Source: Planctomycetaceae bacterium
Lineage (GTDB): Bacteria > Planctomycetota > Planctomycetia > Pirellulales > Pirellulaceae
Assembly: GCA_007694185.1 (NCBI GenBank)
Contig: RECD01000174.1
Span: forward strand, 2,364-66,363
DNA length: 64,000 nt
Reading direction: 5' to 3'
A program made the position numbers and the translations under genes. Positions within the stretch are counted from its first letter, which is position 1, and each line of letters opens with the position of its first letter. Positions 14,995 through 63,032 of the stretch are shown piece by piece. The notes beneath the pieces were generated by a model. That model was not told the DNA's origin, made no database searches, and worked only from the letters and a program-made list of their open reading frames with translations.

Positions 14995-15816
14995 TCAGTC
15001 CTGCCGGCGAATCCCCGTCGCGTCGACCGTCAGCCACGCGGCAACCTCCGGCCGGCCGTATTCCGCACCCGCCGTCGTCACGTTCAGCCGGTCGCCCAGC
15101 CGCGCCAACCCGCCGTTGTGCGTGTGACCACAGAGCACCTCCAGCCGCCCTGCGGGATGGGCCTCGATCGCTTCTCGCAAGACTTCGCCGACCTGACCGC
15201 AGACGAAAAATGGGGCCCACCAATCATCGGTCGTCCGCCCGAGGTACCAACAGGCTTCACGGAAAGGCGGGACGTGGGTGACAACCAAAACCGACGCATG
15301 GGTGGCCATTGCCGAAACCAATTTGCCTCGCAATCGTGCCGCCGATTGGCGGCCCTGTTCGATCAACATCGGCTTCCACGAGCCGATCGGAGCCAACCGA
15401 AAATCGTCGATCCAGCGGAAATCGTTCAGCCGTACCGGCGAGCCTTCGAAGTCGCCGATCGTCGCATCTCCCCAACCGTCCTCGCCGACCAACGCCACCG
15501 AGTCGTTCAAACAGATCGGTCCCGAATCGGTCAGGTAGTTCAAGAGCGGGTGACGCCGACATCCGGCCACGACGGCCGCACGCTTCGCATCGATGCTGCC
15601 ATGATAAAAGTCGTGATTGCCGAGCACGAAGTGGATCGGGATGGCCAGTTCGTCCGCCAACAGTCGCAGTTGAAACAGCACGTCTTCCCCCTCCGAGATG
15701 TCTCCCGAGATCAGCAGCGCGTCGGGGGCCCCGTCCTGAATCTCGCCCATCAGCGTTTCCCACGCGTCGAGCGGGCAGTGGTTGAAGTGGGGATCGGTGA
15801 GCCACGCCAGCCTCAT
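14995..15816 (-). CDS. calcineurin-like metallophosphoesterase
   Basis: Motifs in canonical order: WLTDPHFNH (DxH), ISGDISEGED (GD), LGNHDFY (GNHD/E), VVTHVPP, CGHTHNG (GHxH). The ATG at 15816-15814 overlaps the helicase TGA (15815-15813) as ATGA. The track start at 15843 would overlap by 31 nt. Confidence 0.8.
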   Translation of the reverse strand: MRLAWLTDPHFNHCPLDAWETLMGEIQDGAPDALLISGDISEGEDVLFQLRLLADELAIPIHFVLGNHDFYHGSIDAKRAAVVAGCRRHPLLNYLTDSGPICLNDSVALVGEDGWGDATIGDFEGSPVRLNDFRWIDDFRLAPIGSWKPMLIEQGRQSAARLRGKLVSAMATHASVLVVTHVPPFREACWYLGRTTDDWWAPFFVCGQVGEVLREAIEAHPAGRLEVLCGHTHNGGLARLGDRLNVTTAGAEYGRPEVAAWLTVDATGIRRQD

Positions 15817-18512
15817 TTCGGCGACTCCGTTTCGGCTTGGCATGAAGCTCCTGGGTCTGACCAGCCCGCGTCACCCACCTCTTCCCAAACCCGGCCGCCG
15901 ACGGTCGGGTCGAGGTCATCGCGTGCGCCACACCCCAGCGCATGATAGATCAATGCCGACGCCGATTTGTTCTTAAAGTCCGGCTTGTCCGCCGGCTGAA
16001 CGATCAGGTGCAGCGCCTGGCGGGCGCGGGTCAGGGCGACGTACAGCAGGCACAACGATTCGGTCATCAGCCCCGCGGCGTGGCCGCCGAAGGCACGCTG
16101 CCAAACCGTCGGCAAAAAGTGCCAGTGGTCGGCGCCGGCGTACCGCAGCATCGCGTCCGGGGCCGACCCGGCGTCCGCTTTCTTAGCGATCGTTTGCCGT
16201 GCCTGACGGGTAAGAACCCCTTCGAGTTCCGGCAACACGACGCAATCGAACTCGAGCCCCTTCGCTTGATGCACCGTCATCACGCGGACCTGGGCCGGCC
16301 GCGGTTTCTCGATCCGCTCGACCCGCACCCGCTCGACGAAATCACGCAGTCGTGGCTGACGATTCAACTCGTGCCGCTCGGCAAGCGCGACGAGCTGCCG
16401 CAACCGCGCGCGGTCCTGTTCGTCACAAACCGTGACCAACCGATCGGCGATCTCGATGACGGCGCCGGCGATCCCCAGATTTTCGACCAGCCTACGGACC
16501 CGCCCCGCCGCGGCGTGCGTTTCGTCCTGCGGCCCGGTCTGCAACCAACCCGCCAGCGGCGAGTGGGCGACATGGAACCACCACCGGCGGTCGGCCGGGT
16601 GCTCGGCCATCATCAATGCCGACAAGACCAACTCGACAGCCGCCGAATCGGTCAACGGGTTGCCCCCCTCCTGGCTGACGTCGACCCCGCCGCGACGGAG
16701 CAGGTGGATCAAGCCGCCGACCGTCCGGTTGGTCCGGGTCAGCACGCCGATCGACCGCCCCGGCATCGATTCGGCCAGTTCGGCGATCCGTTTCGCGACC
16801 TCGCCGAAATGCCGAGCCGATCGCGTTTCGCTGTCCTCCCGCCGGTCCGCTTCGGACGCGGAAGTGCAGGAGAAGGTGAAATGCCCCGGCAACCTTTGTT
16901 TATGAGCCGAATGCTCCGGAAAGTTGGTCGAAAAGTGCGTGATCGCGGCCGCTTCGTAAGCCGTCCGGTCATGCGGCGCCGCGTCCGGGTCTCCGCCATC
17001 GGCGAACTCGGGGTGACGCAACAGGTTTTTGAAGATCCGGTTGACGACGTCGATCACGACGGGGCTGCTGCGAAAACTCTCGTCTTGATTCCGCTGCTGA
17101 ACCCCCGGGATCTGCTCCTGGACCGCATCAAAGATCCCGGCGACGCCGCCGCGCCAACCGTAGATCGCCTGCTTCGTGTCACCCACACAAAAGAAACTGC
17201 CGCTCCCTTGCGGGTCGACAGCCGCCAGCGCCAGCGGCTTCAAAACCGCCCACTGTGCGGGTGACGTGTCCTGAAACTCATCCAGCAAGACGTGCTCCAG
17301 CGCGCCGTCCAGCCTCAACCCCGCCCGGCCAGGACTGACCATGGCGAACAGGCCGGCCAAGCGGTGGGCCAGGTCGTCGAAAGCCAACGCCCGCATCGTG
17401 CGTTTCAACGACATCAGGTGCGTTTCGTACGCCGCGATGACTTCGCCGGTCGCCTCCGTCTGGGCTCGCAACAGCCCGAGAAAATGAGTCCGGCAGGCCG
17501 CCGCGATCAAATCGATCGCCAACCTCGCCTCTTCCGGAACCGGCTTGCGGTAATACAGCAGTTCGGCTGCCGGACCCGCGCAGTGAACGTCGGCTACCAA
17601 CTTGTGGACGCTGGCCGCTTCCCACTCACCCGACTCGACCGACTCGGCCAACTTCACCAATTGCCCGTCGGCTGACTTGTGCCCCATCCGGGTCGATCGC
17701 AACCGCTCGGCTGCCTCCGCGAGCCGCTCCGGTTCCGGCCCACTCGGTACGTCCAACTTTTGCCAAGCCTCCGGCGGGCAGGCGCGGGCTTCCGCGTAGC
17801 CGTCGTTGACGACCGCCAACATCTCCCGGCGGACCGAACGTTTCGTATCCCCCTTGCCGAGCATCGCGAGCAAAGCGGTCACGGTGCTCCCCTCCAGACC
17901 GCCCAACATGTCGTCGATCGCCCGCTCGCGAATCCAGGCGTCTTCGACCGGATCCGTCAACCGCCAACCCGGCGGCAAGCCGAGCTCGTAGTCGAACGTT
18001 CGCGCGAATTGCGAGAACAGGCTGTCGAGGGTCAGGATCCTCAGGCGGTGTATGTCGCGAACGAGCGCGTGGACCAGCCGCTCGGCGGTCGGGCGGCTCA
18101 ACGCGTCGCCGCCGACTTGGTCGCGCAGCTCGTTCAATTTCTTGCCGCTGTCGTCGACCGCCGCCTCGGACAACGCCAACAACACCCGGCTGAGTATCTC
18201 GCCAGCCGCCTTGCGGGTGAACGTCGTCGCCAAAATCGACTCGATCGCCGCCCCATCCGCCAGCAAACGCATCAAACGCCCAGTCAATTGATACGTCTTT
18301 CCCGTACCCGCTGAGGCGCGGATCAACAGCGGCTCAGGACGCGAACGGACCGGTTCGCCAGACGCGCCGGGTCGGGAGATGCGAGCTGACAAGGGCGTGG
18401 CGGCAATCAGCCGATTCCGATGGGGCGAACGGGAAAGTACCGCCATTGGAAAAGCGACCCACGCCGCTGTCAACAAACGCGAATGGACATCAAACGCACG
18501 CCGCCAGTGCAT
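15813..18512 (-). CDS. UvrD/RecB/AddA-family superfamily-1 helicase without a recognisable nuclease domain
   Basis: 899 aa with an ATG start. Motif I ASAGTGKTYQL, motif II VLLDEFQDTSPAQW, motif III FCVGDTKQAIYGWRG, motif V/VI MTVHQAKGLEFD and LLYVALTRARQAL. Only ~70 residues follow motif VI. Confidence 0.8.
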   Translation of the reverse strand: MHWRRAFDVHSRLLTAAWVAFPMAVLSRSPHRNRLIAATPLSARISRPGASGEPVRSRPEPLLIRASAGTGKTYQLTGRLMRLLADGAAIESILATTFTRKAAGEILSRVLLALSEAAVDDSGKKLNELRDQVGGDALSRPTAERLVHALVRDIHRLRILTLDSLFSQFARTFDYELGLPPGWRLTDPVEDAWIRERAIDDMLGGLEGSTVTALLAMLGKGDTKRSVRREMLAVVNDGYAEARACPPEAWQKLDVPSGPEPERLAEAAERLRSTRMGHKSADGQLVKLAESVESGEWEAASVHKLVADVHCAGPAAELLYYRKPVPEEARLAIDLIAAACRTHFLGLLRAQTEATGEVIAAYETHLMSLKRTMRALAFDDLAHRLAGLFAMVSPGRAGLRLDGALEHVLLDEFQDTSPAQWAVLKPLALAAVDPQGSGSFFCVGDTKQAIYGWRGGVAGIFDAVQEQIPGVQQRNQDESFRSSPVVIDVVNRIFKNLLRHPEFADGGDPDAAPHDRTAYEAAAITHFSTNFPEHSAHKQRLPGHFTFSCTSASEADRREDSETRSARHFGEVAKRIAELAESMPGRSIGVLTRTNRTVGGLIHLLRRGGVDVSQEGGNPLTDSAAVELVLSALMMAEHPADRRWWFHVAHSPLAGWLQTGPQDETHAAAGRVRRLVENLGIAGAVIEIADRLVTVCDEQDRARLRQLVALAERHELNRQPRLRDFVERVRVERIEKPRPAQVRVMTVHQAKGLEFDCVVLPELEGVLTRQARQTIAKKADAGSAPDAMLRYAGADHWHFLPTVWQRAFGGHAAGLMTESLCLLYVALTRARQALHLIVQPADKPDFKNKSASALIYHALGCGARDDLDPTVGGRVWEEVGDAGWSDPGASCQAETESPK

Positions 18513-29127: not shown

Positions 29128-32073
29128 TCACTTGCCACCCTTGGTCGCCGGTGATGGCTTCGGGGCGACCAACACTTCCGCCGGCACCGGGTGATCTTCG
29201 GTCGGCATGGTGCCGGGGGTCAGGGGACCCGGGGTTCGAATCAGCCCGGATGCGGTGTAGCAATCGGCATTGCAATGGCTCACCCCACTGGCGTTCATCC
29301 AGTCGCCGCCACCGAGGGTTTCCGGGGTGATCGCTCCGGGATCGATCCAGAGACCTTCGGGGGTCAGTTGCATCGTCTCCAGATCGAAGTCGAGGCTGCG
29401 GCGGATCACCTCGTAGTTCACGAAGATGTTCAGCAGCGTGTTTTGCGAGTTCAACAAGTCGGTCAAGGCGCTGATCGTATCCCGTGCGGCCGTCGGCCCG
29501 CTGCTCAGCCCTCGGGCGTCGCGGAGGGCCCGCAGGTCTTCGTTCAGTTCCAACTGCTCGGCCGCGATCCGGACCGATTGCCGCCCGATCTCGAAGTTGA
29601 TTTGGTTCGTCAACGCCTGACGAAGCTCACCACGGACCAATTGCCAGACCCCGTCCTCGAACTGGTAATAGTTCCGCCGTGCCTGTTCGAACTCGATCTG
29701 CGATTGGCGGTAGGTGTTCCGTTCCTGGAGCCTCGTCAGCGGCGCGTCCCAGCGGAGGCCGACGCGGAGTCGGCCGGTGCTGGTCCGCAGGTCGAGCGGG
29801 TTGCTGCTGCCGTTCTGGACGTCGCCCGAGAAGACGACATCGAGCGAACTCTCCAAGTCGTCCGCGTTGAACTCGATCAACCGCCACGTATCGACCAGCG
29901 CGGCGCGGGCGTTGGCCCAATCGCGGCGGTTGGCTTGCGCGATCTGGAAGGCCTCGGCGGGCGTCAGCCGGATTTCAGGCAGCACGACACTTTCGGTTCG
30001 GCTGCGGGCTTGGATCAGTTGCAGTGCCAACACGTCGTCGGCCAAATCGGCCAACAGGTCCTGGCTACCCAGGATCACGTCGTTGCGGATGGTATCCGCC
30101 AAGTCCCGCGGAGCGATTTCGGCCCCCGCATCCGGTTGGGAGAACCGCTCCAGCGTCGCTTGCAAGCGGTCCAGCAAAACCGCGTAGCGAGCGAATCGCG
30201 TCGACAACTTCTCGTAATCGCTCTCAAGCGTCGTCACGACGTCGAGGATCTCCGCTCCGTCGAACAGGTTGGTGGTAACCCCCTCAAATTCGAGCAGGTT
30301 GCAAATCTTGCCCCGATTCTGTTCGTAGGTCTCGCGAAGCGAATCCGCTTGGCGACGCCGCTCGCCCTGAGCGGCACGCAGCGTCTGGATGTCGTTGGCA
30401 ACCCGCGGAAGGTCGAGGTCGACCACCTGGCTACGAAATGCCAACAGCGGGCCGAGTGCCACCTCCAGACGCTTGACCGTCTCGGCCAACTCGGGCGACC
30501 ATTCGATTTCCAGTTTTGGCAACCCGGTATTGGCGTCGACCGATCGCGTGGCGTTGCCCAGCAACTCCAGGTTGATCTGACCGGCCGTCGTCCGCAGGTC
30601 GAGCAACTGCTCGCGGCGACCCCGCAGCGTCTGATCGATCAGCTCGAACCGTTCCAGCATTGGGTCGGCGATCTCGACACACAGGTAAGGCGGCAATCCG
30701 AGGGTCCGCAGGAACCGATCGATGTCGTTCTGGTATGCCGAACGACGGTTGATCAGTTGGGTTTGCGCGTTCAATAGCGCCGAACGGGCTTGCGCGATTT
30801 GCAGCCGTTGTCGGGGAATCCCCTCGGCGTCGTCGGGGATCGTCGTCAGCAACTCGATCAATGTGTCTTCGAGGATCAACAGATTTTCCTTCAGCCGCGC
30901 GACGTTCTCCTCCAAGTTGCGGATCTGCAATTGCGATTGGAGCAAGCCGAGGAATCCGCCCGCTTGGGGAACGCCCCCGCCGCCGGCGACGCCGAACCCG
31001 GCCCCGCCGCCACCGCCGCCGGCCAGACCGGCAAAACCGCCGCCCAAGCCGGTGAAGCCGCCCAAACCGACGCCGAACACCCCGCCGCTCCGTTGCACGG
31101 TGCTCTCGGTCGCCCGCCCGATCGTCACGTTCAAGTAGAAACTCCGTCGGTAACGTTCGAACGCCCGGACGTTCGCCAGCAAACGGCGTTCCGACAGCGT
31201 CAACCGTTCCAGCACCCGATCCCGGCCGGCGCCGCGGAGCAGCGGTTGCAACAACACGAAATCGAACACCGTGTTCGCCGTCTGCTGGTTCGGGCCGCTG
31301 AAGTCCCAGACGACGCCGTTGGCGAAACCGACCAACAGGTCCGCACCGGTCGCGAAGGTCCGCTGCATCGCCCAGGGACGGCGACCGACGCTGTAAGGGG
31401 CCAATTCCAAGCTTGAACGACTGTTGCCGCCCCCGCCCCGTCGGTTCGGGCCGTCCGCCGTGAAGAACGTTTGCATCCCGCCGAAGAACTGGGTGTCGAA
31501 CCGGAACCGTTCGCTGCTGACGTCGAGCGCCGACAGGTAAAGCTGTTCGATCTGACGCTGGTATTCGGGCGAATGGAGCAGCGCCAATTGCACAGCCATG
31601 TCCGAATCGAGCCGCAACACGCCGTTCTCATCCAGCGGCAGCGTCGCCCACCAATCCGGATTTTCCATCGCGTTGGTCGTCCCGGCGGCTTTCCAGAGCG
31701 GGTAGGCCCGGCGGCCGTCGACGACCCGCATGTAGCGGTGTGAAGCCGGATCGTCGACCGGCATCGGCTGAAAATCGAGGTCGAACGGGTTGTACATTCG
31801 GCTGCGCCCGTCCGGGTTGACCCGGATCAATTGCCCCGGGTCCTGGCAGGCATGCAGGACCTTCTCGTCGATCAGTTGATGCGCTTCCATATCCGCCTGG
31901 CGGCGGTAATAGGCGCGGTGGCAGCCCGTCGAAGTCGTTAAGCAGGCCAGCAGCAGCACCAGCCCCAGACGAAACGCCGGGGCAGTCGCCCGCTTCGGTA
32001 GCGAGCCAATCTCCAACCCTGCCCGCACCGCACCGCGATGGCTTCTCCGCCCCTGCCGAATCTTGGATCGCAT
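29128..32073 (-). CDS. TolC-family outer membrane channel-like lipoprotein, unusually large, with a Gly-rich insert
   Basis: 981 aa. Lipobox-like LLLACLTTSTGC. Two OEP-like halves (LRLDSDMAVQLALLHSPEYQRQIEQLYLSALDV...; IRLTPAEAFQIAQANRRDWANARAALVDTWRLIEF...). Insert GGVFGVGLGGFTGLGGGFAGLAGGGGGGAGFGVAGGGGVPQAGG. Confidence 0.6.
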   Translation of the reverse strand: MRSKIRQGRRSHRGAVRAGLEIGSLPKRATAPAFRLGLVLLLACLTTSTGCHRAYYRRQADMEAHQLIDEKVLHACQDPGQLIRVNPDGRSRMYNPFDLDFQPMPVDDPASHRYMRVVDGRRAYPLWKAAGTTNAMENPDWWATLPLDENGVLRLDSDMAVQLALLHSPEYQRQIEQLYLSALDVSSERFRFDTQFFGGMQTFFTADGPNRRGGGGNSRSSLELAPYSVGRRPWAMQRTFATGADLLVGFANGVVWDFSGPNQQTANTVFDFVLLQPLLRGAGRDRVLERLTLSERRLLANVRAFERYRRSFYLNVTIGRATESTVQRSGGVFGVGLGGFTGLGGGFAGLAGGGGGGAGFGVAGGGGVPQAGGFLGLLQSQLQIRNLEENVARLKENLLILEDTLIELLTTIPDDAEGIPRQRLQIAQARSALLNAQTQLINRRSAYQNDIDRFLRTLGLPPYLCVEIADPMLERFELIDQTLRGRREQLLDLRTTAGQINLELLGNATRSVDANTGLPKLEIEWSPELAETVKRLEVALGPLLAFRSQVVDLDLPRVANDIQTLRAAQGERRRQADSLRETYEQNRGKICNLLEFEGVTTNLFDGAEILDVVTTLESDYEKLSTRFARYAVLLDRLQATLERFSQPDAGAEIAPRDLADTIRNDVILGSQDLLADLADDVLALQLIQARSRTESVVLPEIRLTPAEAFQIAQANRRDWANARAALVDTWRLIEFNADDLESSLDVVFSGDVQNGSSNPLDLRTSTGRLRVGLRWDAPLTRLQERNTYRQSQIEFEQARRNYYQFEDGVWQLVRGELRQALTNQINFEIGRQSVRIAAEQLELNEDLRALRDARGLSSGPTAARDTISALTDLLNSQNTLLNIFVNYEVIRRSLDFDLETMQLTPEGLWIDPGAITPETLGGGDWMNASGVSHCNADCYTASGLIRTPGPLTPGTMPTEDHPVPAEVLVAPKPSPATKGGK

Positions 32074-51883: not shown

Positions 51884-52073
51884 GTAGCAGGCACACTCCG
51901 AGTGCCGTCCGCCCGCCTCCAAAAAGCGTAGCTTTGGTAGCGTCACGGCACACGGAGTGTGCCTACTACTTTGCCTCCCAATATCCCGCAGGGATTACAC
52001 GGGTCGCGCAGCGCACCCGGGGATTGCACGACAAAAACGAAGGTTTCGACCCCGCAGGGGTCGCAGAAACCGA
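51884..52073 (+). repeat. intergenic hairpin-bearing repeat element, copy 1 (MITE/REP-like)
   Basis: Module 1 has 21-nt inverted arms at 51887-51907 (gcaggcacactccgagtgccg) and 51946-51966 (cggcacacggagtgtgcctac), with 19 of 21 positions complementary. Module 2 runs ~51985-52073 (cccgcagggatt...gggtcgcgcagcgcacccgggg...cccgcaggggtcgcag). A second copy lies in the same orientation at 60416-60656. Confidence 0.85.
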
Positions 52074-54641: not shown

Positions 54642-57272
54642 ATGGATACCATGAGATCGTTTCTTCGAAGCTCGGCTCGCGAGCGGTTGACCGACCTGCG
54701 GCGGATGATGCCGACTGACGGTCGTCTCCGTTGGCTCCTGCTGGGGATCGCCTGCCTCGGATTGCTGGCGTCGCCTGCCACCGTGTCGGCCGAACCGCCG
54801 ATCGGTCCGCTGGCGGCGGCCGCACGAGCCGATGCCGATGCCGTGGCCAGCGGCGACGCCGACGCGGTCCCGTCCCCCGCGACCTTCCTCGGGCGTCCCG
54901 TCGGCACCGATTTTCAATTGGCCGATTGGACCCAGGTGAGCGACTACTACCGCCGGTTGGCCGAGACGAGCTCACGGGTGATCCTCCGGTCGGCCGGCCA
55001 GACGACCGAGGGTCGCGACTTTCTCTACGCGATCATTTCGGACGAATACAACCTGGCGAGGCTGGACGAGATCCAAGCGAACTCGAAGATCATCGCCGAC
55101 CCGCGCGGCGTTCCCGCCGGCCGTCGCCGCCAAGCGATCCGTGACGGCAAGGTGATCCTCTTCGTGACACCGACGATGCACGCTTCCGAAACGGCAGCGA
55201 CCGAAATGGGGATGCAATTCGCCTGGTCATTGGCGACTTCCGATGAAGAGCCCTATCGGAACGCGCGTAAAAAATGTGTCGTCGTGATCACCCCGTCACT
55301 CAATCCGGACGGCGTCGACGTCGTCGTCGACTGGTATCGGCAACACGTCGGCACGCCGCTGGAAGGGACCGAACTGCCGCGGCTCTACCAGCTCTACACG
55401 GGGCACGACAACAACCGCGATTGGTTCATGTTGACCCAAGCCGAAACCCGGCACCTGACGCGATTGCTTTACCGCGAGTGGTTCCCTCAATTCCTGTGGG
55501 ACGTTCACCAACAGGGGAACACGACCGAACGGTTTTTTGTGCCGCCCTACCGAGACCCGTTGAACCCGAATCTCGATCCCGGAATCGTCGCCGGCATCAA
55601 CCTGATCGGGTCCCGCGCGGTTTTGGACATGACCCGCGAAGGGTTTACCGGGATCGCTTCGGGCGTCTCCTACGACAACTGGTGGAACGGCGGCAACCGC
55701 AGCGTCCCGGCACGCCACAACGTGATCGGGATTTTGACCGAGGCGGCATCGGTCAAGATCGCCTCGCCGATCTTCCAAACCCAAGCCTCGTTGAACGACC
55801 CGTTGGGGACCGGCAAGTACCAACCGAGCAATCAGTTCGTCCGGCCGTGGCCGGGCGGTTGGTGGCGGTTGCGCGACATCATCGACTACGAACTCGCCTT
55901 CGGCCGTTCGTTCCTGGGCAGCATCAGCCGCGAGCCGCAGCATTGGCTTCGTAACGCCATGGAAGCGGCCCAGCGGAATATCGACGCCGCCGATGTCAGC
56001 GGCCCCCGCGGGTGGCTGATCCCGACCGACGTGCACGACGTCGGGGCTACCCGTCGGTTGCTCGATGTGCTGATCGCCTCGGGTGTCGAAGTCCACCGGG
56101 CGACAGAAGCCTTCCGATCCGACGGCCGCGACTACCCAGCCGGCACGATCGTGATCCGTCGCGATCAACCCTACGGCGGTTACGTCAAGGATCTGTTCGA
56201 ACTGCAAAACTTTCCGCCGGGCGTCAAACCTTACGACGTGACGGGCTGGACCCTGCCGCTGCTGCTGGGGGTTCGTCGGATCGAAGTCCGCGACCCTTGG
56301 GAGGTGACGACGGAGCGGGTGGAGGAACCGAGTCAGGCGCTGTCCGCCTTTCTCGGCGATCCGCGACTGGCGGACGCCGACGCCGCGCCCGAAACCCTCT
56401 CACTCGCCGACAGCGATTCGTGGACCAAACTGGTGAAGCGGCTCGGCGATGGCGAGTCGCTGCGGATGCTGACCAGACCCCCTCAGGCCGGGTTGGTGGT
56501 TCCCAAACCGGAGGCCCAAGAACCTATCGGGATCGACTTGTCAGGACTACCTCGAATCGGGCTGTACAGCCCCTGGTCTTCCAGCATGGACGAGGGCTGG
56601 ATGCGGTGGGTGCTGGAGCACTTCGAAATCCCGTTCACGACGGTTCGGAACGAATCGATCCGAGCGGGTGATCTGAACTCGGTTTACGACGTCTTGGTCA
56701 TCCCCAGCCTTACCGCACGCTCGATCGACCGGGGCCGCCCGGTCGAAACCTCGCCATGGGAATTGGCTGGGGGGCTCGATCCGGAAGGGGCGATCGAGAT
56801 CCAGCGGTTCGTCCGTCGCGGCGGGCGGTTGATCGTGATGGACAATTCCGCCACCTGGGCCATCAACCTGCTCCGCTTGCCGCTCATCGACGTGACCCGT
56901 GGGGCCAAAGATTTGTCCTGTCCCGGCAGCGTGCTCCGCGGGGTCGTCAAGTCGGATCGGTTGACCGCCGGTCTGCCGGACGAATTGGCGTTGTTTTTCT
57001 CCAACTCTTCCGCCTACCGGGTGATGACCAACACCGAACGGGACGCGGCAGGTGCGGAGGAAATCCCAGTCAAGACGCTGCTGAGTTATGCCTCCAACCG
57101 GTTGTTGCTATCCGGCTTCCTGGAAGGGGAGCAAGCCCTAACCGGCCAGGGAGCCTGGATGCAACTCCCCTACGGCGACGGCCAGGTCCACCTATTCGGC
57201 TTCCGCCCCCACTACCGCGCCTGGTCCCAAGCGACCTTCCACCTCCTCTTCCGAGCGATGTTGATAAAGTAA
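54642..57272 (+). CDS. secreted M14-family zinc metallopeptidase-like protein (large)
   Basis: 876 aa with a signal peptide (LLLGIACLGLLASPATVSA). HxxE zinc motif in VTPTMHASETAATEMG. Also NPDGVD, YTGHDNNRDW and GILTEAAS, in the order expected for M14. Confidence 0.65.
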   Translation: MDTMRSFLRSSARERLTDLRRMMPTDGRLRWLLLGIACLGLLASPATVSAEPPIGPLAAAARADADAVASGDADAVPSPATFLGRPVGTDFQLADWTQVSDYYRRLAETSSRVILRSAGQTTEGRDFLYAIISDEYNLARLDEIQANSKIIADPRGVPAGRRRQAIRDGKVILFVTPTMHASETAATEMGMQFAWSLATSDEEPYRNARKKCVVVITPSLNPDGVDVVVDWYRQHVGTPLEGTELPRLYQLYTGHDNNRDWFMLTQAETRHLTRLLYREWFPQFLWDVHQQGNTTERFFVPPYRDPLNPNLDPGIVAGINLIGSRAVLDMTREGFTGIASGVSYDNWWNGGNRSVPARHNVIGILTEAASVKIASPIFQTQASLNDPLGTGKYQPSNQFVRPWPGGWWRLRDIIDYELAFGRSFLGSISREPQHWLRNAMEAAQRNIDAADVSGPRGWLIPTDVHDVGATRRLLDVLIASGVEVHRATEAFRSDGRDYPAGTIVIRRDQPYGGYVKDLFELQNFPPGVKPYDVTGWTLPLLLGVRRIEVRDPWEVTTERVEEPSQALSAFLGDPRLADADAAPETLSLADSDSWTKLVKRLGDGESLRMLTRPPQAGLVVPKPEAQEPIGIDLSGLPRIGLYSPWSSSMDEGWMRWVLEHFEIPFTTVRNESIRAGDLNSVYDVLVIPSLTARSIDRGRPVETSPWELAGGLDPEGAIEIQRFVRRGGRLIVMDNSATWAINLLRLPLIDVTRGAKDLSCPGSVLRGVVKSDRLTAGLPDELALFFSNSSAYRVMTNTERDAAGAEEIPVKTLLSYASNRLLLSGFLEGEQALTGQGAWMQLPYGDGQVHLFGFRPHYRAWSQATFHLLFRAMLIK

Positions 57273-58004
57273 CCTCCGCCCGCGCTACGGATCCGAACGA
57301 TCACACGGCAAGCTCATCGACTTCAACCTCGAGGGCATCGGCAAGGGTGCAACCGAATTTAGGCAACTTCGTGGAGGTCGAAGAAGCTGAGTGCTGCGTA
57401 TCCCAGGGCAGGAGCGGTTGGGTGAACTCCTGTTTCCGACCCGGTTCGACGTTCATCAAACCCGCCGCGTGAGGCCGACAACGATCAGGTCGAGAGCTTC
57501 CTAGAACCGGATTGCCGCGGTTCGGCCGGCTTGGAGTGTGGTTGAACCGGGGGTTGCGAACGGGGTTTAAATCGGCAACGTTCAATTGAAGGCGACCTCC
57601 TGCCTCCGTGAAACGGTTTTGCAGAACCCGAACCATGGCAGGTTGGCCACCTTTCAATTCCCCGCATGTCCTGCCCAGCGGTTCTCCGTCCGGCGAGATG
57701 ACGTTAACACCCTTGACGAACACGGGCAGATCCTGATTCAAGGTCGAGGTGACAACGATAGAATCGACTCGGCTCGTAAAGTGGCGACAGATTCGATCCG
57801 ATTCATCCGCCGGCGACGCGGCGCGCTGCTCACCGCAGCGGTGACCGGACGGATTTCCGTCGTGACGACGACCGGATGATCCTCGATACACTCAGGCTAG
57901 CCAACTTTGGGTTGCCAGCAGTTCGACCTAATAATCGAACCTCGGCTTACGGCCATCGGCGGCGTCAAGGGTGCGGGAACAAGCGAAATGAAGAGTGAGG
58001 CCCT

Positions 58005-59411
58005 ATGAGAATTGACCGACTGGAGCTGCGGAACTTCAAAAAGTTCTCGCGGGCAACGTTCGAGTTTCCGCGAACCGTCAACGCCCACGCCGATGCGGGA
58101 TCGTTCCACGTCCTGATCGGCGAAAACGGCGTCGGCAAGACCACCATTCTGGATGCCCTCGCCGTGGCGCTCGGAGTCTGGTTGGAACGGGTGCCCGATT
58201 CGCTCTTGGCCAACAGCCGGCGGCGGCTAAAAAAGGACGACAAGCGGATGATCGGTGGCCTCCAGGGCGACCGCTCACAGTTCCGGCGTGTCCCTGAAGA
58301 CATGTCGATTGACGCACGAGGTGTGGTACTGGATCAAACCGACGTCGCCTGGGGACAGACGCTCGCCGTCGGTAAGACGAAGGTCAGCAATGCCGCGTCG
58401 CAGGATGTTTTGGCATGGATTTGGTCGGCCTACGAGCGAGTCGGCCAGGGCGAGAGGGTCATCTTGCCGGTGATCTGCTACTACGGGGCCGGGCGGGCGT
58501 GGCTGGCCCACAATGAACGCAACAAGGCAAAAGCAAAGTCCAACGGACCATCGAATCGGTGGGAGGCGTTCTACGATTGCCTCAATGAGCGCATCCGCAT
58601 CGCAGACTTGGCCCACTGGTTTTTGGGCGAGCACATCGCGATGGGCAACCGAAACGGGCGCCCCCGCCCCGGATTCGAAGTGGTTCGCCGCGCGGTGCTG
58701 GCCTGCGTTCCGGGGGCCGATGGCATCTGGTACGACAGCGATTCGCAAGAGATCTCGCTGTCGATTGACGGCAACGCCCAGCCATTCGGAAACCTTAGCG
58801 GCGGCCAACGCGTGCTGCTCGCTCTGGTCGCCGACCTGGCGATCAAGGTCGTTACGCAGAACAACTTTCTTGTCCCACCTGACGAACTCGGTCCTGAGGA
58901 TAACGCGTTGCCGCGGGTGCTGGCCCAGACACCCGGCGTCGTGCTGATCGACGAACTGGACGTGCATTTGCATCCGACGTGGCAACGCAGCATCGTGGAG
59001 TCGCTGAGGAAAATATTCCCAAGGATTCAGTTCATCACGACCACACACTCGCCATTCATTGTGCAGTCACTCCGCGAAGATGAGCTGATCAATCTGCAAG
59101 GCCAGACCGTTCCGCAACTGGGCAACCTGAGCGTCGAGCAAATTGCCAACGGGCTCATGGGCGTCGATCGGCCGGATGTGGGGCAGCGGTACGAAGAGAT
59201 GGTCACGGCCGCAAAAGACTACCTGGTCACGCTGGATGAGGCGAAGCGAGCTCCCGCGGACAAACTCGCTGAGTTCGAGGAGAAGCTGGCGAATCGAATC
59301 GCACCGTACGCCGACAACCCGGCTTTTCAGGCGTTTCTAGAACTCAAGCACGCCGCGAAGTTGGGAGGTCACGGCCACTCGGCAGAACCCTTTAATCAGG
59401 GAGGGGCATGA
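58005..59411 (+). CDS. ptuA: ABC/OLD-type AAA ATPase, PtuA-like (Septu defence ATPase)
   Basis: 468 aa. ATG preceded by gagtgagg. N-terminus MRIDRLELRNFKKF...VLIGENGVGKTTILDAL (Walker A). LSGGQRVLLALVADL (signature-like). VVLIDELDVHLHPTWQ (Walker B/D-loop). FITTTHSPFIVQS (H-loop). No TOPRIM or other nuclease domain. Confidence 0.7.
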   Translation: MRIDRLELRNFKKFSRATFEFPRTVNAHADAGSFHVLIGENGVGKTTILDALAVALGVWLERVPDSLLANSRRRLKKDDKRMIGGLQGDRSQFRRVPEDMSIDARGVVLDQTDVAWGQTLAVGKTKVSNAASQDVLAWIWSAYERVGQGERVILPVICYYGAGRAWLAHNERNKAKAKSNGPSNRWEAFYDCLNERIRIADLAHWFLGEHIAMGNRNGRPRPGFEVVRRAVLACVPGADGIWYDSDSQEISLSIDGNAQPFGNLSGGQRVLLALVADLAIKVVTQNNFLVPPDELGPEDNALPRVLAQTPGVVLIDELDVHLHPTWQRSIVESLRKIFPRIQFITTTHSPFIVQSLREDELINLQGQTVPQLGNLSVEQIANGLMGVDRPDVGQRYEEMVTAAKDYLVTLDEAKRAPADKLAEFEEKLANRIAPYADNPAFQAFLELKHAAKLGGHGHSAEPFNQGGA

Positions 59412-60140
59412 ATGCGGCCCGTCGTCCGCGGAGATAGCCCACAAGCTGTTGATTTCGTCAACTACCGGGATGCGTTTGGAGAACTCGCTGCCCGGATCGG
59501 CATGTTCTGTTCGTATTGCGAACGCCGGATAGCCACACAGCTTGCGGTTGAGCACATTCAGCCGAAAAACGGCCCACATGGGCGTCCTGACCTGGAACGG
59601 CGGTGGGAGAATTTCCTTTTGGGTTGCGTTAATTGCAATTCGACGAAAGGAGCTAAAGATGTCGTCCTCGCGAATCTCCTGCTGCCCGATCGCGACAATA
59701 CCGCTGCGGCCTACGAATACACGATGGATGGTAAGGTCAAGCTTGCCGCCGCATTGACGGCCACCCAGTCGACCTTGGCGACGAACACGTTGACGCTGGT
59801 TGGGCTGGACAAACGATTGAATCAGGTTCTGGATTCCAATGGACAGCTCGTGGCGGTCGACCGCGTTGCCCAGCGTATGGAAGTCTGGTTGATCGCACAG
59901 GACAGCAAGGACGACCTGCAGGCGAATCCCACCGACACGTTCCGTCGCCAAATCGCTCGCACGGCGACCGGACATGGTTTCTTCAGCATCTGGATGACCG
60001 TTTTCCAGAACGATCCGACAGTTCGGAAGTTGTTGACCAAGGAGTTCGCGGGCACTGCCACGGACTGTTTCGATCCGACGACGACGCAAATCATCACCCC
60101 TCGACCAGCAAACGGCTTGCCGGATGGCAGCAAGCTATGA
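59412..60140 (+). CDS. ptuB: HNH endonuclease of the TIGR02646 type, PtuB-like (Septu defence nuclease)
   Basis: 242 aa. The ATG directly abuts the ptuA TGA (59409-59411). CSYCERRI...LAVEHIQPK...WENFLLGCVNCNSTKG is the Cys/His HNH pattern of the retron/Septu-associated HNH family. Confidence 0.7.
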   Translation: MRPVVRGDSPQAVDFVNYRDAFGELAARIGMFCSYCERRIATQLAVEHIQPKNGPHGRPDLERRWENFLLGCVNCNSTKGAKDVVLANLLLPDRDNTAAAYEYTMDGKVKLAAALTATQSTLATNTLTLVGLDKRLNQVLDSNGQLVAVDRVAQRMEVWLIAQDSKDDLQANPTDTFRRQIARTATGHGFFSIWMTVFQNDPTVRKLLTKEFAGTATDCFDPTTTQIITPRPANGLPDGSKL

Positions 60141-60316
60141 AAACCCGCATCGATTCCGCCATCGAAATCGTGCCGTTTGATAGCTTTTTGGCCGCAGGCT
60201 ACGAGGACGTCTCGTCCGCAGAATCTGTGGGCGAAAATGCAATAGCTTCGGCCGCACGTGCCGCTCGGTCGGGCCTCACTAACAAGGATACCTACCCGGA
60301 CGTGCTGTTAAGTTAA
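60137..60316 (+). CDS. 59-aa acidic ORF translationally coupled to ptuB (hypothetical)
   Basis: Below the 60-aa cutoff of the ORF track and found by hand translation. The ATG at 60137-60139 overlaps the ptuB TGA at 60138-60140 (ATGA). MKTRIDSAIEIVPFDSFLAAGYEDVSSAESVGENAIASAARAARSGLTNKDTYPDVLLS, with stop TAA at 60314-60316. Confidence 0.3.
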   Translation: MKTRIDSAIEIVPFDSFLAAGYEDVSSAESVGENAIASAARAARSGLTNKDTYPDVLLS

Positions 60317-60415
60317 GCACTTCAATAGCCCTCATCGCGCATAACTTGCCCGCGTCAATCGGAACCGCTGTTGGCCGACTCCCCAGATCATAACGAAACA
60401 GTTCTGTCGACATGC

Positions 60416-60656
60416 TTAGCAGGCACACTCCCTGTGCCGTCCGCCCGCCTCCCAAAAGCGTTGCTTTCGGAGTGCCACGGCACACGGAGTGTGCCTGCTA
60501 CTTTGCCTCTCGTAGAAATTCACAGTCCCTCTGGGCGACACGTCGTTCTTCTCCTATCCCGGAGGGATTAAAGCTATTAGCCCCGGGTCGCGCAGCGCAC
60601 CCGGGGAATACGCGACAAAAACAACGCCATCGATCCCGCAGGGGCCGCAGCGACTC
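60416..60656 (+). repeat. intergenic hairpin-bearing repeat element, copy 2 (MITE/REP-like)
   Basis: Arms at 60419-60439 (gcaggcacactccctgtgccg) and 60478-60498 (cggcacacggagtgtgcctgc), with 20 of 21 positions complementary. Module 2 runs ~60556-60656. About 45 extra nt (60511-60555) lie between the modules relative to copy 1. Confidence 0.85.
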
Positions 60657-60676
60657 ACTCGCGGTCCGACGCCGAC

Positions 60677-62308
60677 TCAGGGGAGTCGAATGACTTCATT
60701 GCCACCACGAGTAAACAGTCCCCAAAACATCTGCGGATCGATTTGGTCCGAGATGAATCGCACCGATCCGTCACCCAACCCGACATGGAAACCGCCCGGA
60801 CGATGTTTGGCCATCTGGGCCAGCGGGTTCGCCGGATCGATCGGAGCATCGGCCGGCTTCGTCCACGGTACCGCCGCCTCGGCATTCGCCTCGAACAACG
60901 CGATGGTGTTGCTCAGGCCGTCCGTGACCTGCGCGAAACGGACCGTCGCGGAGGGCTCGAACAGCAAGCCGTCACCGGTCGGTACTTGATAAATCGTCAT
61001 ACCGGGAGGTAGGGCGAGGCTCGGATCGGCATAGGTGCTGGGCATCCGTTCGAGCAGCTTCAGGTTGTGCTCGCTGTCCCAGGGCTCGTCCAGGTGGAAC
61101 TCGTTGTAGAGCTCCGCTTCCTCGATGAACGGCAGGATCGCGACCCGCCAACTGAGCAGCGGTTGCCCTTGCGGGTCTCGCTTGATCGCGGCGGGCAGGT
61201 GGCGGTAGGCATCGTGATAGTTGTGGAAAGCCAACATGATCTGCTTGATGTTGTTGCTCGACGTCATCCGCCGAGCTGCTTCCCGCGATGCTTGCACCGC
61301 CGGCAACAGGAGCCCCACCATCACGCCGCTGGTGGCGTAAGTGCTGCCGACACCGTCGAGCTGGATCGCCAATTCTCGTCCCGACTGCGTGGGGGTTAAC
61401 ATCGCGGAGATCTCGTCGCCCAACCGCCGCAGATAATTCCGGGCCGCGTCGGGCACCGCCCCTTGCCCTTCCACTGACTGCAAGGCCTGGATCATCGCGA
61501 TCTCCTTGCCGAACTGCATCCCCTCTTCCAAGACCGTCGACAACCGGCCGGCATCGGACTCGTCATTGGCGACCAAGGTCAGTTGCGAAACGCCGCTCGT
61601 CGAGAGGCTCGTCTCGATCAAGACAGCCTCGGTCAATTTCGGGATCTCGATCAACTGGCTCAAGGGCAGTGGCATGTTCTGGCTCTGCGCCACGATCGCA
61701 GGGCTAAGGATTTGACCGCGGACCGGCTCGATCACCATCGCGGCGAGGATCGGCGTCTGCCGCTGCCGCGACGCGACGAATTGTGCGAGCGGCCCCGGTT
61801 TGCTGCTCGGCGTCAGCATCGCCCCCAAAAACTCGCCGGTAGCGACGACGTAGGTGCGTGGATCGACGCGGTGTAAATAGGCCCCCGGCAAATCGGCCAA
61901 GGGAATCGCCATGTGGCCGCCGACCTGCTCCGCCGGTCCGGCAAACCGCTCCCGATTCAACCTTTTGGCATCCAGATCTTGCTTGAGTCGAATCCAGACG
62001 CCGTACTCGAGCCCCGTCGGGCCGGGCGTGCCAACCACCCCGGTCAACGACTCGATGCCGCTCAAGCCGACTCCGATGTTCTCGATCATCCAGGCGTCGG
62101 CAATCTCGATCGGCATCATCTTCATCTCGGGAGCCGAAAGGATCTCTTGCGGAAAGATCACCATGGCGGCCAAGGCGTCGGCCGGGATCCTTTCCACGGA
62201 TATTGCCGGAGTGGCTGCTCCATCTTGAGCCGAGGCGTGGCCGAGGTGGGTGAAGGCCGCGAGCGCGACCGCCGCGTAAACCAGAAAAGCCATGGGTTGC
62301 CGGTTCAT
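60677..62308 (-). CDS. secreted fusion protein: unknown ~327-aa N-terminal domain + C-terminal DUF1559/H-X9-DG domain lacking the prepilin cleavage motif
   Basis: The ATG at 62308 (ggagac 8 nt upstream) starts the signal peptide [27 protein letters not shown]. The internal [39 protein letters not shown] begins about residue 328. C-terminal [19 protein letters not shown]. The track start at 62494 adds 62 Arg/Ser-rich residues. Confidence 0.7.
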
Positions 62309-63032
62309 CGAGAAGTCTCCGAGTATTGAAAAGTTAAATGGCGATACGGTGGATGAGTGCCGGCTCAACCGGCGAATGGAAGCGGCCCGTTCCGGCTGGT
62401 CGCGTTTCCGTCGGCCCCCTTCGGCGGGTCGATAAAATCGGCATTGGCTTGAAACGGAGTCGCAGTCCGATGAGCGTTTTTGGTTCGCCACCAAACACCG
62501 TAACAGGAACCGACGCTAGGAATCAGATTAACACAACGACCAGGGCGCTGATACAGAACGCGACACTCACCCAACCCCGCCGGTTGTTGGCCCTACTGCG
62601 GCCAGCGCGGCGAGCCGCCGACGCGGGTTCGATCTTTTTCTCAAGAGCCCATCACACGCCCGCATCTCCCCAGCGAATCGAACGCCGCATCGAGCAATGC
62701 ACCCGCGACGCCTTTGGGATAGAGCAAGCTCGCAAACGGTCGAGCCGTCGGCTGTTGACGCACTTAGCGGCACGGCGCAAGCCGTCCGGTCCGTCGGCGA
62801 TGGCAAGACCGGACGGCTCGCGCCCTTCCGCTAACCTGGCGATGAACTCGCCCAGACGCCAGCGTCTGTTTTGCCAAACGACACCGGCCCAATAACTAGC
62901 CCAGCCCAGCAGGCTGGTTCGATGGGCAATGGGTACCGCGAGGACCAAAGGCCCGGCAATTTGCGACGAAAAAACGGTTAGCAACACAATGCCCACCGTA
63001 TCCCCGACCGCTTCCCCAGCGTCGTGTGCGAC

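What the first reader, a model, noticed from the sequence alone, without database searches (positions are those of the whole stretch)
58005..60140. Two-gene ATPase + HNH module with Septu (PtuA/PtuB) architecture
**Seen:**
- A 468-aa ABC/OLD-type ATPase has Walker A GENGVGKT, Walker B/D-loop LIDELDVHLHP and H-loop TTTHSP, and no nuclease domain.
- A 242-aa Cys/His HNH protein (CSYCERRI...VEHIQPK...CVNCNSTKG) follows immediately. Its ATG at 59412 abuts the TGA at 59409-59411.
- This stretch has visibly more AT-rich runs than its neighbours (for example aaaatattcccaaggattcagttcatcac).
- The adjacent 57.3-58.0 kb has no recognisable gene.

**Established:** an AAA_15/21-type ATPase plus a TIGR02646-type HNH is the Septu anti-phage system. 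The same pair is the effector of Ec78-type retrons.

**Inference:** this is a horizontally acquired stand-alone Septu-like defence module in a planctomycete-like genome, a lineage where such systems are little studied. No reverse transcriptase is present in the window.
Basis: partly seen in the sequence, partly recalled or inferred. Interest (0 to 1): 0.7.

Follow-up and report, generated by a model that had tools for sequence, protein, structure and literature searches.

The report
Ordinary stand-alone Septu (PtuA–PtuB) defence pair
Two back-to-back genes in a planctomycete genome encode an ATPase and an HNH nuclease that clearly match the known Septu anti-phage system, so this is a routine new example of a known defence system and not a new one.

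Summary
ptuA (58005-59411, 468 aa) and ptuB (59412-60140, 242 aa) abut (TGA|ATG). All ABC-ATPase and HNH motifs are intact. Substitutions against a 92%-identical relative (L001) fall mainly at third codon positions, so both genes are under purifying selection.

PADLOC models give full-length matches: PtuA E=2.9e-106 and PtuB E=1.2e-79. AriA, RecF, SbcC and retron-type models score far lower. A PtuA model (pLDDT 79) hits E. coli Septu PtuA in its top ten PDB fold matches. No RT, no Rfam RNA and no structured upstream RNA were found. PtuA lacks the N-terminal extension of retron PtuA. This is stand-alone (type I) Septu.

The pair behaves as a small mobile cassette:
- In five other genomic contexts, DNA similarity is limited to about 57949-60190.
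- None of 80 other Planctomycetota loci anchored on the upstream M14 peptidase gene carries it.
- One homologue sits in a defence island next to a transposase.

The acquisition is not recent. L001 has the pair at the same site, ptuA has host-like composition, and only ptuB is clearly AT-shifted (GC3 z=-3.5). More than 100 close homologues exist, mostly from Planctomycetota.

Verdict: a new member of a known kind, of low interest. Any annotation pipeline that uses PADLOC would call it.

The parts
57949..58004 (+). Short 5' leader that travels with the cassette. It includes a Shine-Dalgarno-like GAGTGAGG at 57993-58000. Any promoter is not identified.
   Evidence: Nucleotide similarity to independent insertions starts at 57949 (L086) or 57994 (L003). 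The sequence was read. No sigma-70-like promoter was found in 57000-61000.
58005..59411 (+). ptuA: a 468-aa ABC-type ATPase. Motifs: Walker A 39-46, signature LSGGQ 264-268, Walker B 312-319, H-loop 345-350. A C-terminal helical extension spans about residues 394-453.
   Evidence: ORF. PADLOC PtuA E=2.9e-106, full length. Pfam AAA_21 and AAA_15. PDB 8ee4 PtuA E=3.9e-27. Fold search top hits 8EEA, 8EE4 and 8SUX, E~1e-25. Substitutions by codon position 12/8/49.
59400..59406 (+). GGAGGGG ribosome-binding site for ptuB, lying inside the end of ptuA (translational coupling).
   Evidence: Sequence read. The abutting or overlapping ptuA/ptuB junction is kept in L001, L003, L085, L086 and L088.
59412..60140 (+). 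ptuB: a 242-aa HNH (beta-beta-alpha-Me) nuclease. The zinc-binding cysteines are C33-x2-C36 and C72-x2-C75; the catalytic residues are H48, N67 and N76. A C-terminal helical domain spans about residues 151-219.
   Evidence: ORF. PADLOC PtuB E=1.2e-79, full length. Pfam HNH 28.8 bits, above its cut-off of 21.4. Invariant residues. Profile against PDB: 9n69_F 1.5e-11 and Ec78 PtuB 1e-5. Substitutions by codon position 5/4/15.
60141..60190 (+). Short 3' tail that is still similar in one independent insertion (L003). This marks the outer limit of the cassette.
   Evidence: The blastn alignment to L003 ends at 60190, and the alignments to L086 and L088 end at 60140.

Best explanation
This is a stand-alone (type I) Septu anti-phage system: a translationally coupled two-gene operon, ptuA-ptuB.

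Likely mechanism, by analogy with characterised Septu systems:
- PtuA, an ABC ATPase, oligomerises. In E. coli Septu the complex is 6 PtuA : 2 PtuB.
- PtuA uses its C-terminal helical extension to hold the C-terminal helical domain of the HNH nuclease PtuB.
- In uninfected cells, nucleotide-bound PtuA keeps the nuclease quiet.
- Phage infection releases this control. [quoted passage not shown] This stops phage replication by growth arrest or abortive infection.

Shown here: homology, domain and motif integrity, operon structure, purifying selection, absence of retron parts, and cassette-like mobility.

Inferred from the literature only: oligomer stoichiometry, trigger, substrate, ATP control, and the protection itself.
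For: - PADLOC gives full-length matches: PtuA E=2.9e-106 and PtuB E=1.2e-79.
- The best solved sequence relative is stand-alone Septu PtuA 8ee4, E=3.9e-27, aligned from residue 1.
- The PtuA model (pLDDT 79) has E. coli Septu PtuA as all of its top ten fold hits, TM up to 0.78.
- The PtuB profile hits solved PtuB/TIGR02646 chains, and the top nine fold hits are all PtuB chains.
- The pair is homologous over its full length to an adjacent ATPase/HNH pair on a Bacillus mycoides megaplasmid, at 33% (E=5e-72) and 38% (E=1e-52) identity.
- All ATPase and HNH motifs are invariant.
- Substitutions show third-codon-position bias.
- The genes abut and have an internal ribosome-binding site.
- The cassette occurs in unrelated contexts, including a defence island with a Lit-like Peptidase_U49, a NACHT NTPase and an rve transposase.
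- Mechanism sources: PMC12819146 and PMC12640716 for the hexamer, the 6:2 complex, ATP-inhibited nicking and the CTE-CTD interface; PMC13096335 for tRNA-Tyr cleavage and the requirement for Walker A/B and HNH residues.
Against: - No experiment exists for this or any planctomycete Septu.
- PtuB is very distant from the structurally solved E. coli Septu PtuB (profile E=0.25).
- The PtuB model is poor in the HNH core (pLDDT below 50 for residues 29-90).
- NCBIfam scores fall below the curated cut-offs: TIGR02646 at 42 against 52, and the Ec78 PtuA and PtuB models far below.
- PtuA has a canonical signature Gln (LSGGQ). The solved E. coli Septu PtuA has Leu there and lacks ATPase activity (PMC12819146), so regulation may differ.
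- No promoter was recognised.
Confidence: 0.9

Rival explanations
1. It is the orphaned effector module of a type I-A retron (Ec78/Eco7 or Ec83/Eco4 type, also called 'Septu type II'). Its RT and ncRNA have been lost or lie elsewhere in the genome.
For: PtuA and PtuB are also retron I-A effectors. The NCBIfam Ec78 PtuA and PtuB models give the best NCBIfam hits. The best PDB hit for the PtuB profile is a retron I-A PtuB, 9n69_F.
Against: - The neighbouring genes are an M14 peptidase and a DUF1559 gene, not an RT.
- No RT was found among 38 other window genes.
- No Rfam hit appears even at E<=1, and the upstream block has no excess RNA structure.
- PADLOC retron-specific models score far below the PtuA and PtuB models: ATPase_I-A E=5.8e-54 (partial) and HNH_I-A E=1.1e-14.
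- Retron PtuAs align only over residues 225-357 and carry an N-terminal extension of about 63 residues that is absent here (PMC12819146).
- The Ec78 models score 180 against 500 bits and 42 against 150 bits.
- None of six other contexts of this clade has an RT next to the pair.
Confidence: 0.03
2. It belongs to a different ABC-ATPase plus nuclease defence family, such as PARIS (AriA/AriB), Gabija (GajA), an OLD-family nuclease, or an AbiEii-like AAA_21 system.
For: The Pfam AAA_21 and AAA_15 domains are shared by these families. Weak partial hits exist to AriA, OLD and Rad50.
Against: AriA matches only residues 255-353 (E=1.2e-24), against a full-length PtuA match at E=2.9e-106. There is no TOPRIM or DUF4435 domain in either protein. 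The partner is an HNH protein that matches PtuB over its full length. PDB AriA and OLD hits have E of about 5e-4.
Confidence: 0.02
3. The pair has a housekeeping or otherwise non-defence role. It could be a RecF/SbcC-like DNA repair ATPase with an HNH nuclease, or a purely selfish, addiction-type mobile cassette.
For: In the window it lies among ordinary metabolic and envelope genes and not in a defence island. ptuA has host-like composition. The pair is kept at the same site, and is better conserved than its flanks, in a relative.
Against: RecF, SbcC and Rad50 hits cover only the Walker A region and score far below their cut-offs. The pair is absent beside the M14 orthologue in 80 other Planctomycetota loci. 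Its neighbourhoods are different and unrelated in every lineage sampled. One copy sits in a defence island, and one copy appears pseudogenised. This is typical of accessory defence genes.
Confidence: 0.05

Closest known systems
Bacillus cereus-group Septu-type pair, represented here by the adjacent 'AAA family ATPase' and 'HNH endonuclease' genes on Bacillus mycoides plasmid p357 (NZ_CP035976.1). Septu was first described in this lineage (my own knowledge: Doron et al. 2018).
   Same: Same two-gene order with a coupled junction. Homology is full length: PtuA 33% identity (E=5e-72) and PtuB 38% identity (E=1e-52), including the PtuB C-terminal domain. Both fall under the same PADLOC PtuA/PtuB model group.
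   Different: Different phylum (Planctomycetota against Bacillota) and chromosomal instead of megaplasmid-borne. PtuA here has the signature LSGGQ, where the Bacillus protein has LSDGV. I did not verify that this particular Bacillus locus is one of the experimentally tested ones.
E. coli stand-alone Septu PtuAB (PDB 8EE4, 8EE7, 8EEA, 8SUX; Li et al. 2024, as cited in PMC12819146 and PMC12640716)
   Same: The PtuA sequences align from residue 1 to 363 (E=3.9e-27), with the same N-terminus MRID.L.L.NF. The PtuA fold match has E~1e-25 and TM up to 0.78. There is no retron-type N-terminal extension. PtuB shares the C-terminal helical domain (8eea_G: 123 columns, rmsd 3.1 A).
   Different: PtuB is barely detectable at sequence level (profile E=0.25). 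E. coli PtuA has Leu in place of the signature Gln and lacks ATPase activity (PMC12819146). The window's PtuA has the canonical LSGGQ, invariant in its clade, so it may be hydrolysis-competent.
Septu EcB88 (PMC13096335)
   Same: A two-gene ptuA-ptuB system. Defence there needs Walker A/B and the H-N-H residues, and the equivalents are all present here.
   Different: Its substrate (the tRNA-Tyr variable loop) and its phage triggers are known only for the E. coli system. Nothing here tests the substrate.
Retron type I-A, Ec78/Eco7 and Ec83/Eco4 ('Septu type II'; PMC12819146, PMC12673091, PMC12640716)
   Same: Homologous PtuA ATPase core and PtuB HNH.
   Different: No RT and no msr-msd ncRNA. PtuA lacks the N-terminal extension. 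NCBIfam Ec78 models fall far below their cut-offs.

Membership tests
Septu type I (stand-alone PtuA+PtuB; PADLOC definition) | ABC-type ATPase matched by a PtuA model over its full length | tested here: met
   PDLC00278 E=2.9e-106, protein residues 1-452 against profile positions 1-432 of 436. The next 6 best hits are also PtuA models.
Septu type I (stand-alone PtuA+PtuB; PADLOC definition) | HNH nuclease matched by a PtuB model over its full length | tested here: met
   PDLC00315 E=1.2e-79, protein residues 1-228 against profile positions 1-219 of 227. Pfam HNH scores 28.8 bits against a cut-off of 21.4.
Septu type I (stand-alone PtuA+PtuB; PADLOC definition) | The two genes are adjacent and co-oriented in one operon | tested here: met
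   TGA at 59409-59411 abuts ATG at 59412, and a ribosome-binding site lies at 59400-59406. The junction is kept in 5 homologous loci.
Septu type I (stand-alone PtuA+PtuB; PADLOC definition) | Intact ATPase motifs (Walker A Lys, Walker B Asp-Glu, signature, H-loop), which are needed for defence in Septu EcB88 | tested here: met
   K45, D316-E317, L264-S-G-G-Q268 and H348 are all invariant in 32 homologues. The requirement is from PMC13096335.
Septu type I (stand-alone PtuA+PtuB; PADLOC definition) | Intact HNH catalytic and zinc-binding residues | tested here: met
   C33, C36, H48, N67, C72 and N76 are invariant, and C75 is kept in at least 90% of 22 homologues.
Septu type I (stand-alone PtuA+PtuB; PADLOC definition) | PtuA fold like solved Septu PtuA | tested here: met
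   The model has pLDDT 79. The top ten PDB hits are 8EEA, 8EE4 and 8SUX, with E from 1e-25 to 1e-22 and TMt 0.68-0.78.
Septu type I (stand-alone PtuA+PtuB; PADLOC definition) | PtuB fold like solved PtuB | tested here: inconclusive
   The model has pLDDT 62, and the HNH core (residues 29-90) is below 50. The top nine hits are all PtuB chains, but E is 0.012-0.65 and TM about 0.33. Only the C-terminal domain superposes well (8eea_G, rmsd 3.1 A over 123 columns).
Septu type I (stand-alone PtuA+PtuB; PADLOC definition) | No associated RT or ncRNA (this separates type I from type II, the retron I-A systems) | tested here: met
   The neighbours are an M14 peptidase and a DUF1559 gene. PADLOC on 38 other genes hit only a UvrD-like helicase. 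No Rfam hit was found.
Septu type I (stand-alone PtuA+PtuB; PADLOC definition) | PtuA-PtuB complex (6:2 in E. coli) with an ATP-regulated nuclease | not testable with these tools
   This needs biochemistry or multimer modelling. The property is described in PMC12640716 and PMC12819146.
Septu type I (stand-alone PtuA+PtuB; PADLOC definition) | Confers protection against phage | not testable with these tools
Retron type I-A effector pair (Ec78/Eco7; NCBIfam NF041760 and NF041761) | Score above the curated equivalog cut-offs | tested here: not met
   PtuA scores 180.2 bits against a cut-off of 500. PtuB scores 42.2 bits against 150.
Retron type I-A effector pair (Ec78/Eco7; NCBIfam NF041760 and NF041761) | Adjacent reverse transcriptase and msr-msd ncRNA | tested here: not met
   
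Retron type I-A effector pair (Ec78/Eco7; NCBIfam NF041760 and NF041761) | PtuA N-terminal extension that contacts RT-ncRNA | tested here: not met
   The query's Walker A region (residues 4-63) aligns to residues 67-117 of Ec78 PtuA, so about 63 N-terminal residues are absent. The query is 468 aa against 550 aa. The feature is defined in PMC12819146.
TIGR02646 (NCBIfam subfamily 'retron system putative HNH endonuclease') | Score at or above the curated cut-off of 52.15 bits | tested here: not met
   The score is 42.1 bits, E=8.7e-11, over residues 25-134. JGI nevertheless labels close homologues 'TIGR02646 family'. The protein is a relative of this family, not a member by the current cut-off.
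PARIS AriA / Gabija GajA / OLD-family ATPase-nucleases | Best full-length match to the family, plus a TOPRIM or DUF4435 nuclease either fused or as a partner | tested here: not met
   AriA matches only residues 255-353 (E=1.2e-24). Neither protein has a TOPRIM or DUF4435 domain. PDB AriA and OLD hits have E of about 5e-4.

The most novel reading that the evidence does not exclude
The planctomycete-centred PtuAB clade may work differently from the solved E. coli Septu. Three features point that way: it has a canonical, invariant LSGGQ signature (so a probably hydrolysis-competent PtuA), its PtuB is almost unrecognisable against E. coli Septu PtuB, and it carries its own invariant LLPDRDNT block. 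It could use ATP hydrolysis instead of mere ATP binding as the switch, or have a different nucleic-acid substrate or trigger suited to planctomycete phages.
Probability: 0.25. Interest if true: 0.35.

Novelty: new member of a known kind. Interest (0 to 1): 0.15.

Why it matters
It matters little beyond annotation. The locus should be labelled Septu type I (ptuA/ptuB), and the result shows that this cassette circulates widely among Planctomycetota, a phylum whose phage defence has had almost no experimental study. The clade could serve as a comparison point for how PtuA nucleotide state controls PtuB, because it keeps the canonical ABC signature Gln that the solved E. coli protein lacks. Nothing here challenges current understanding of Septu.

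Tried and rejected
- **Third gene.** A 59-aa ORF at 60137-60316 overlaps the ptuB stop (ATGA). I rejected it as a gene. It has no Pfam hit, its substitutions by codon position are 4/3/1, collinearity with L001 ends at 60214, and no such gene is called in six homologous loci.
- **Divergent gene or ncRNA in the 732-nt upstream spacer.** Rejected. There is no codon periodicity. The 196-aa ORF has three stops in L001 and neutral-level aa identity. There is no Rfam hit at E<=1, the fold z-scores are 0.09 and -0.62, and the region is not shared by other cassette copies.
- **The strong hairpin at 60417-60509 as a Septu-linked RNA.** Rejected. It is a dispersed repeat with a second copy at 51885-51977, and it is absent from L001 and from all other loci.
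- **Empty-site test in close relatives.** Only partly possible. The genome collection holds no M14 orthologue above 67% identity, so an exact empty site could not be shown. Only absence at the anchor in distant relatives could be shown.
- **Mobility signatures around the window copy.** There is no tRNA and no meaningful flanking direct or inverted repeats. Flank proteins searched (52.2-57.5 and 60.7-63.6 kb) had no integrase or transposase domain.
- **Carriage on known plasmids or phages.** The best matches are at most 33% identical.
- **PtuB sequence search of the PDB with the single sequence.** It found nothing; a profile was needed.
- **The primary Septu structure paper (PMC12318543)** is not held. 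Its findings are cited second-hand from PMC12819146 and PMC12640716.
Full report
**Observation**

ptuA is 58005-59411 (+, 468 aa) and ptuB is 59412-60140 (+, 242 aa). The ptuA stop codon TGA (59409-59411) directly abuts the ptuB ATG. A GGAGGGG ribosome-binding site lies at 59400-59406, inside the end of ptuA. This arrangement suggests translational coupling.

All the quoted motifs are present:
- PtuA: Walker A GENGVGKT 39-46, ABC signature LSGGQ 264-268, Walker B VVLIDELD 312-319, D-loop 319-324, H-loop TTTHSP 345-350.
- PtuB: CSYC 33-36, VEHIQP 46-51, WENFLL 65-70, CVNCNSTKG 72-80.

These residues are invariant in alignments of 32 PtuA and 22 PtuB homologues. Pfam finds only P-loop/ABC-type domains in PtuA (AAA_21, AAA_15, AAA_23, SMC_N) and an HNH domain in PtuB.

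Both ORFs are real genes under purifying selection. Against a relative that is 92% identical in DNA (L001, a JGI metagenome contig), substitutions by codon position are 12/8/49 in ptuA and 5/4/15 in ptuB. The neighbouring M14 peptidase gene shows a similar pattern, 39/31/133.

**Family assignment**

PADLOC models give end-to-end matches. PtuA matches PDLC00278 at E=2.9e-106 (residues 1-452). PtuB matches PDLC00315 at E=1.2e-79 (residues 1-228). The following hits are again PtuA and PtuB models.

- AriA: E=1.2e-24, over residues 255-353 only.
- RecF: 28 bits against a cut-off of 172.
- SbcC: 21 bits, and Rad50 27 bits, both over the Walker A region only.

In the PDB, the best sequence relative of PtuA is the stand-alone E. 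coli Septu PtuA (8ee4). It scores E=3.9e-27 and aligns from residue 1 to 363. Retron Ec78 and Ec83 PtuAs align only over residues 225-357. An AlphaFold model of PtuA (pLDDT 79) returns E. coli Septu PtuA chains (8EEA, 8EE4, 8SUX) as its top ten fold matches, with E from 1e-25 to 1e-22 and TM up to 0.78. Retron PtuAs rank below them.

PtuB is much more divergent:
- The single sequence finds nothing in the PDB.
- A 22-sequence profile finds the retron I-A PtuB 9n69_F (1.5e-11) and Ec78 PtuB (1e-5). It finds the E. coli Septu PtuB 8ee7_C only weakly (E=0.25).
- The PtuB model is mediocre (pLDDT 62, HNH core below 50).
- Its nine best fold matches are nevertheless all PtuB chains, and its confident C-terminal helical domain superposes on 8eea_G at 3.1 A over 123 columns.

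The closest annotated pair I found is on Bacillus cereus-group megaplasmids. There, an 'AAA family ATPase' is followed by an overlapping 'HNH endonuclease'. These are 33% (E=5e-72) and 38% (E=1e-52) identical to the window's proteins over their full lengths. As I recall, Septu was first described in this Bacillus lineage.

**Stand-alone or retron-linked**

- The immediate neighbours are an M14-type carboxypeptidase gene (54642-57272) and a planctomycete DUF1559 gene (60677-62494, minus strand).
- A PADLOC scan of 38 other candidate genes in the window hit a single protein. It is a UvrD-like helicase at 15813-18512, whose Pfam domains include no RT.
- ARAGORN finds no tRNA or tmRNA. Rfam finds nothing at gathering thresholds in the whole window and nothing at E<=1 in 57200-60750.
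- PtuA lacks the N-terminal extension that PMC12819146 describes as a retron-specific adaptation. The query's residues 4-63 align to residues 67-117 of Ec78 PtuA.
- The NCBIfam Ec78 equivalogs are far below their cut-offs, at 180 against 500 bits and 42 against 150 bits.

This is therefore type I, stand-alone Septu. According to PMC12640716, the retron-associated form ('type II') makes up about 7.6% of Septu systems.

**The flanks**

The 732-nt stretch 57273-58004 is non-coding:
- Its ORFs have no Pfam hit.
- Substitutions against L001 show no codon periodicity, 37/35/37 in every phase.
- The one long ORF (196 aa, minus strand) has three in-frame stops in L001. Its 73.1% aa identity equals the neutral simulation (0.732 +/- 0.019).
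- The best-conserved block (57501-57750, 91% identical) folds no better than shuffled sequence.

The 59-aa ORF that overlaps the ptuB stop is not conserved.

Downstream, collinearity with L001 breaks for about 440 nt (60215-60652) and then resumes. That stretch holds a 93-nt palindromic element (60417-60509). It has a second copy, 90% identical, at 51885-51977. Each copy folds into one long hairpin, with z-scores from -8 to -10. It is a dispersed REP/MITE-like repeat and not part of Septu.

**Mobility and history**

PtuA has 3208 homologues at E<=1e-10 among the candidates scored. The best 120 are 55-96% identical, and 13 of the 15 that carry an organism name are Planctomycetota: Pirellulaceae, Gemmataceae/Gemmatales, Isosphaeraceae and Anatilimnocola. 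PtuB shows the same pattern.

Seven genomic contexts were read:
- L001 (96% aa identity) is syntenic with the window.
- L003 (83%), L086 (82%), L088 (79%), L085 (77%), L090 (73%) and L089 (65%) each lie between unrelated genes.
- L086 is a defence-island-like setting. A Lit-type Peptidase_U49 lies upstream, and an rve transposase and a NACHT/APAF1_C NTPase lie downstream.

Across these independent insertions, DNA similarity to the window is limited to the two ORFs plus at most 56 nt upstream and 50 nt downstream, that is 57949-60190. None of 80 loci from other Planctomycetota, anchored on the M14 orthologue at 37-67% identity, has PtuA or PtuB within 10 kb. No close relative is on a known plasmid or phage.

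The insertion here predates the split from L001. The compositional signal is also modest. ptuA is within the host range (GC3 0.744, z=-1.2; codon-frequency distance 0.159, which is typical). Only ptuB stands out (GC3 0.671, z=-3.5, lower than all 31 other genes). A planctomycete donor would explain the near-native composition.

**Mechanism**

This section is inferred from the literature.
- In E. coli Septu, PtuA and PtuB form a 6:2 complex. ATP binding inhibits the nuclease, and the activated complex nicks DNA (PMC12640716 and PMC12819146, both citing Li et al. 2024).
- PtuB is held through its helical C-terminal domain by the C-terminal extensions of a PtuA dimer (PMC12819146).
[quoted passage not shown] It needs the PtuA Walker A/B residues and the PtuB H-N-H residues, and it behaves as an abortive-infection system (PMC13096335).

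The window's proteins have the matching parts. The ATPase site is intact. PtuA has predicted C-terminal helices at 394-453. PtuB has a confident helical C-terminal domain at 151-219. The HNH/zinc site is intact.

One difference is worth noting. The solved E. coli PtuA has Leu in place of the signature-motif Gln and lacks ATPase activity (PMC12819146). This clade has an invariant LSGGQ. Nucleotide hydrolysis, and not only binding, may therefore take part in control. This is the only lead towards anything new, and it is untested.

**Verdict**

The locus is an ordinary stand-alone Septu type I system that existing PADLOC models recognise end to end, with many close homologues in public planctomycete data. 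It is a new member of a known kind and of low interest (0.15).

The membership features that remain untested are all experimental: complex formation, regulated nuclease activity and phage protection. A literature search found only two papers that mention Septu and Planctomycetes together, and neither is about such a system.

Noticed in passing
window 60417-60509 and 51885-51977: A dispersed palindromic repeat of about 93 nt. The two copies are 90% identical, and each folds into one long hairpin (dG -55 to -63 kcal/mol, z -8 to -10 on both strands). The copy next to ptuB lies in the only stretch (60215-60652) that is not collinear with the close relative L001. None of the 90 fetched loci has a copy, and there is no Rfam match. 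It looks like a REP/MITE-like element.
   Followed up: partly
window 57273-58004: This 732-nt non-coding spacer differs from L001 by 109 substitutions (85% identity) but has no indel at all. The adjacent coding M14 gene has 6 gapped positions. A block at 57501-57750 is 91% identical, as conserved as coding sequence. I found no coding signal, no Rfam hit and no excess RNA structure, so the indel-free conservation is unexplained.
   Followed up: partly
window 58005-60140 compared with L001 10001-12136: ptuAB is less diverged from L001 than its flanks are. The third-codon-position difference is 0.090, against 0.152 in the M14 gene (Fisher p=2e-4) and 0.135 in the DUF1559 gene (p=0.01). This could reflect stronger constraint or a more recent allelic exchange of the cassette between lineages.
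   Followed up: partly
L086 5977-17216: An 82%-identical PtuAB copy sits in a defence-island-like region. A Peptidase_U49 (Lit-like) gene and a 140-aa unknown gene lie upstream. An rve-family transposase, then a 916-aa APAF1_C protein and a 563-aa NACHT/NPHP3_N NTPase, lie downstream.
   Followed up: no
L090 9475-10125: In this planctomycete MAG the ptuB homologue is split into a 61-aa HNH ORF and a 121-aa ORF after an intact ptuA. This is either a pseudogenised nuclease or an assembly frameshift.
   Followed up: no
L089 8001-10057 (Anatilimnocola sp. NA78, CP187419.1): A 449-aa PtuA homologue (65% identity) is followed, after a 110-nt gap, by a 198-aa protein with no HNH Pfam hit. DNA similarity to the window stops at ptuA position 59053. 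The partner may have been swapped.
   Followed up: no
window 15813-18512 (-): An 898-aa UvrD/REP-type helicase matches many PADLOC GajB models (best E=6.6e-27) and the helicase part of 'RTasHel' (E=1.8e-27). No GajA-like partner or RT domain was detected among the scanned genes, so it is probably a housekeeping helicase.
   Followed up: partly
window 60137-60316 (+): A 59-aa ORF starts in an ATGA overlap with the ptuB stop codon. It has no Pfam hit, is not conserved beyond 60214 in L001, and shows no third-position substitution bias. It is most likely not a gene.
   Followed up: yes
window 29128-32073 (-): A 980-aa ORF with gene-like GC3 (0.805) has no Pfam match at E<=1e-5.
   Followed up: no
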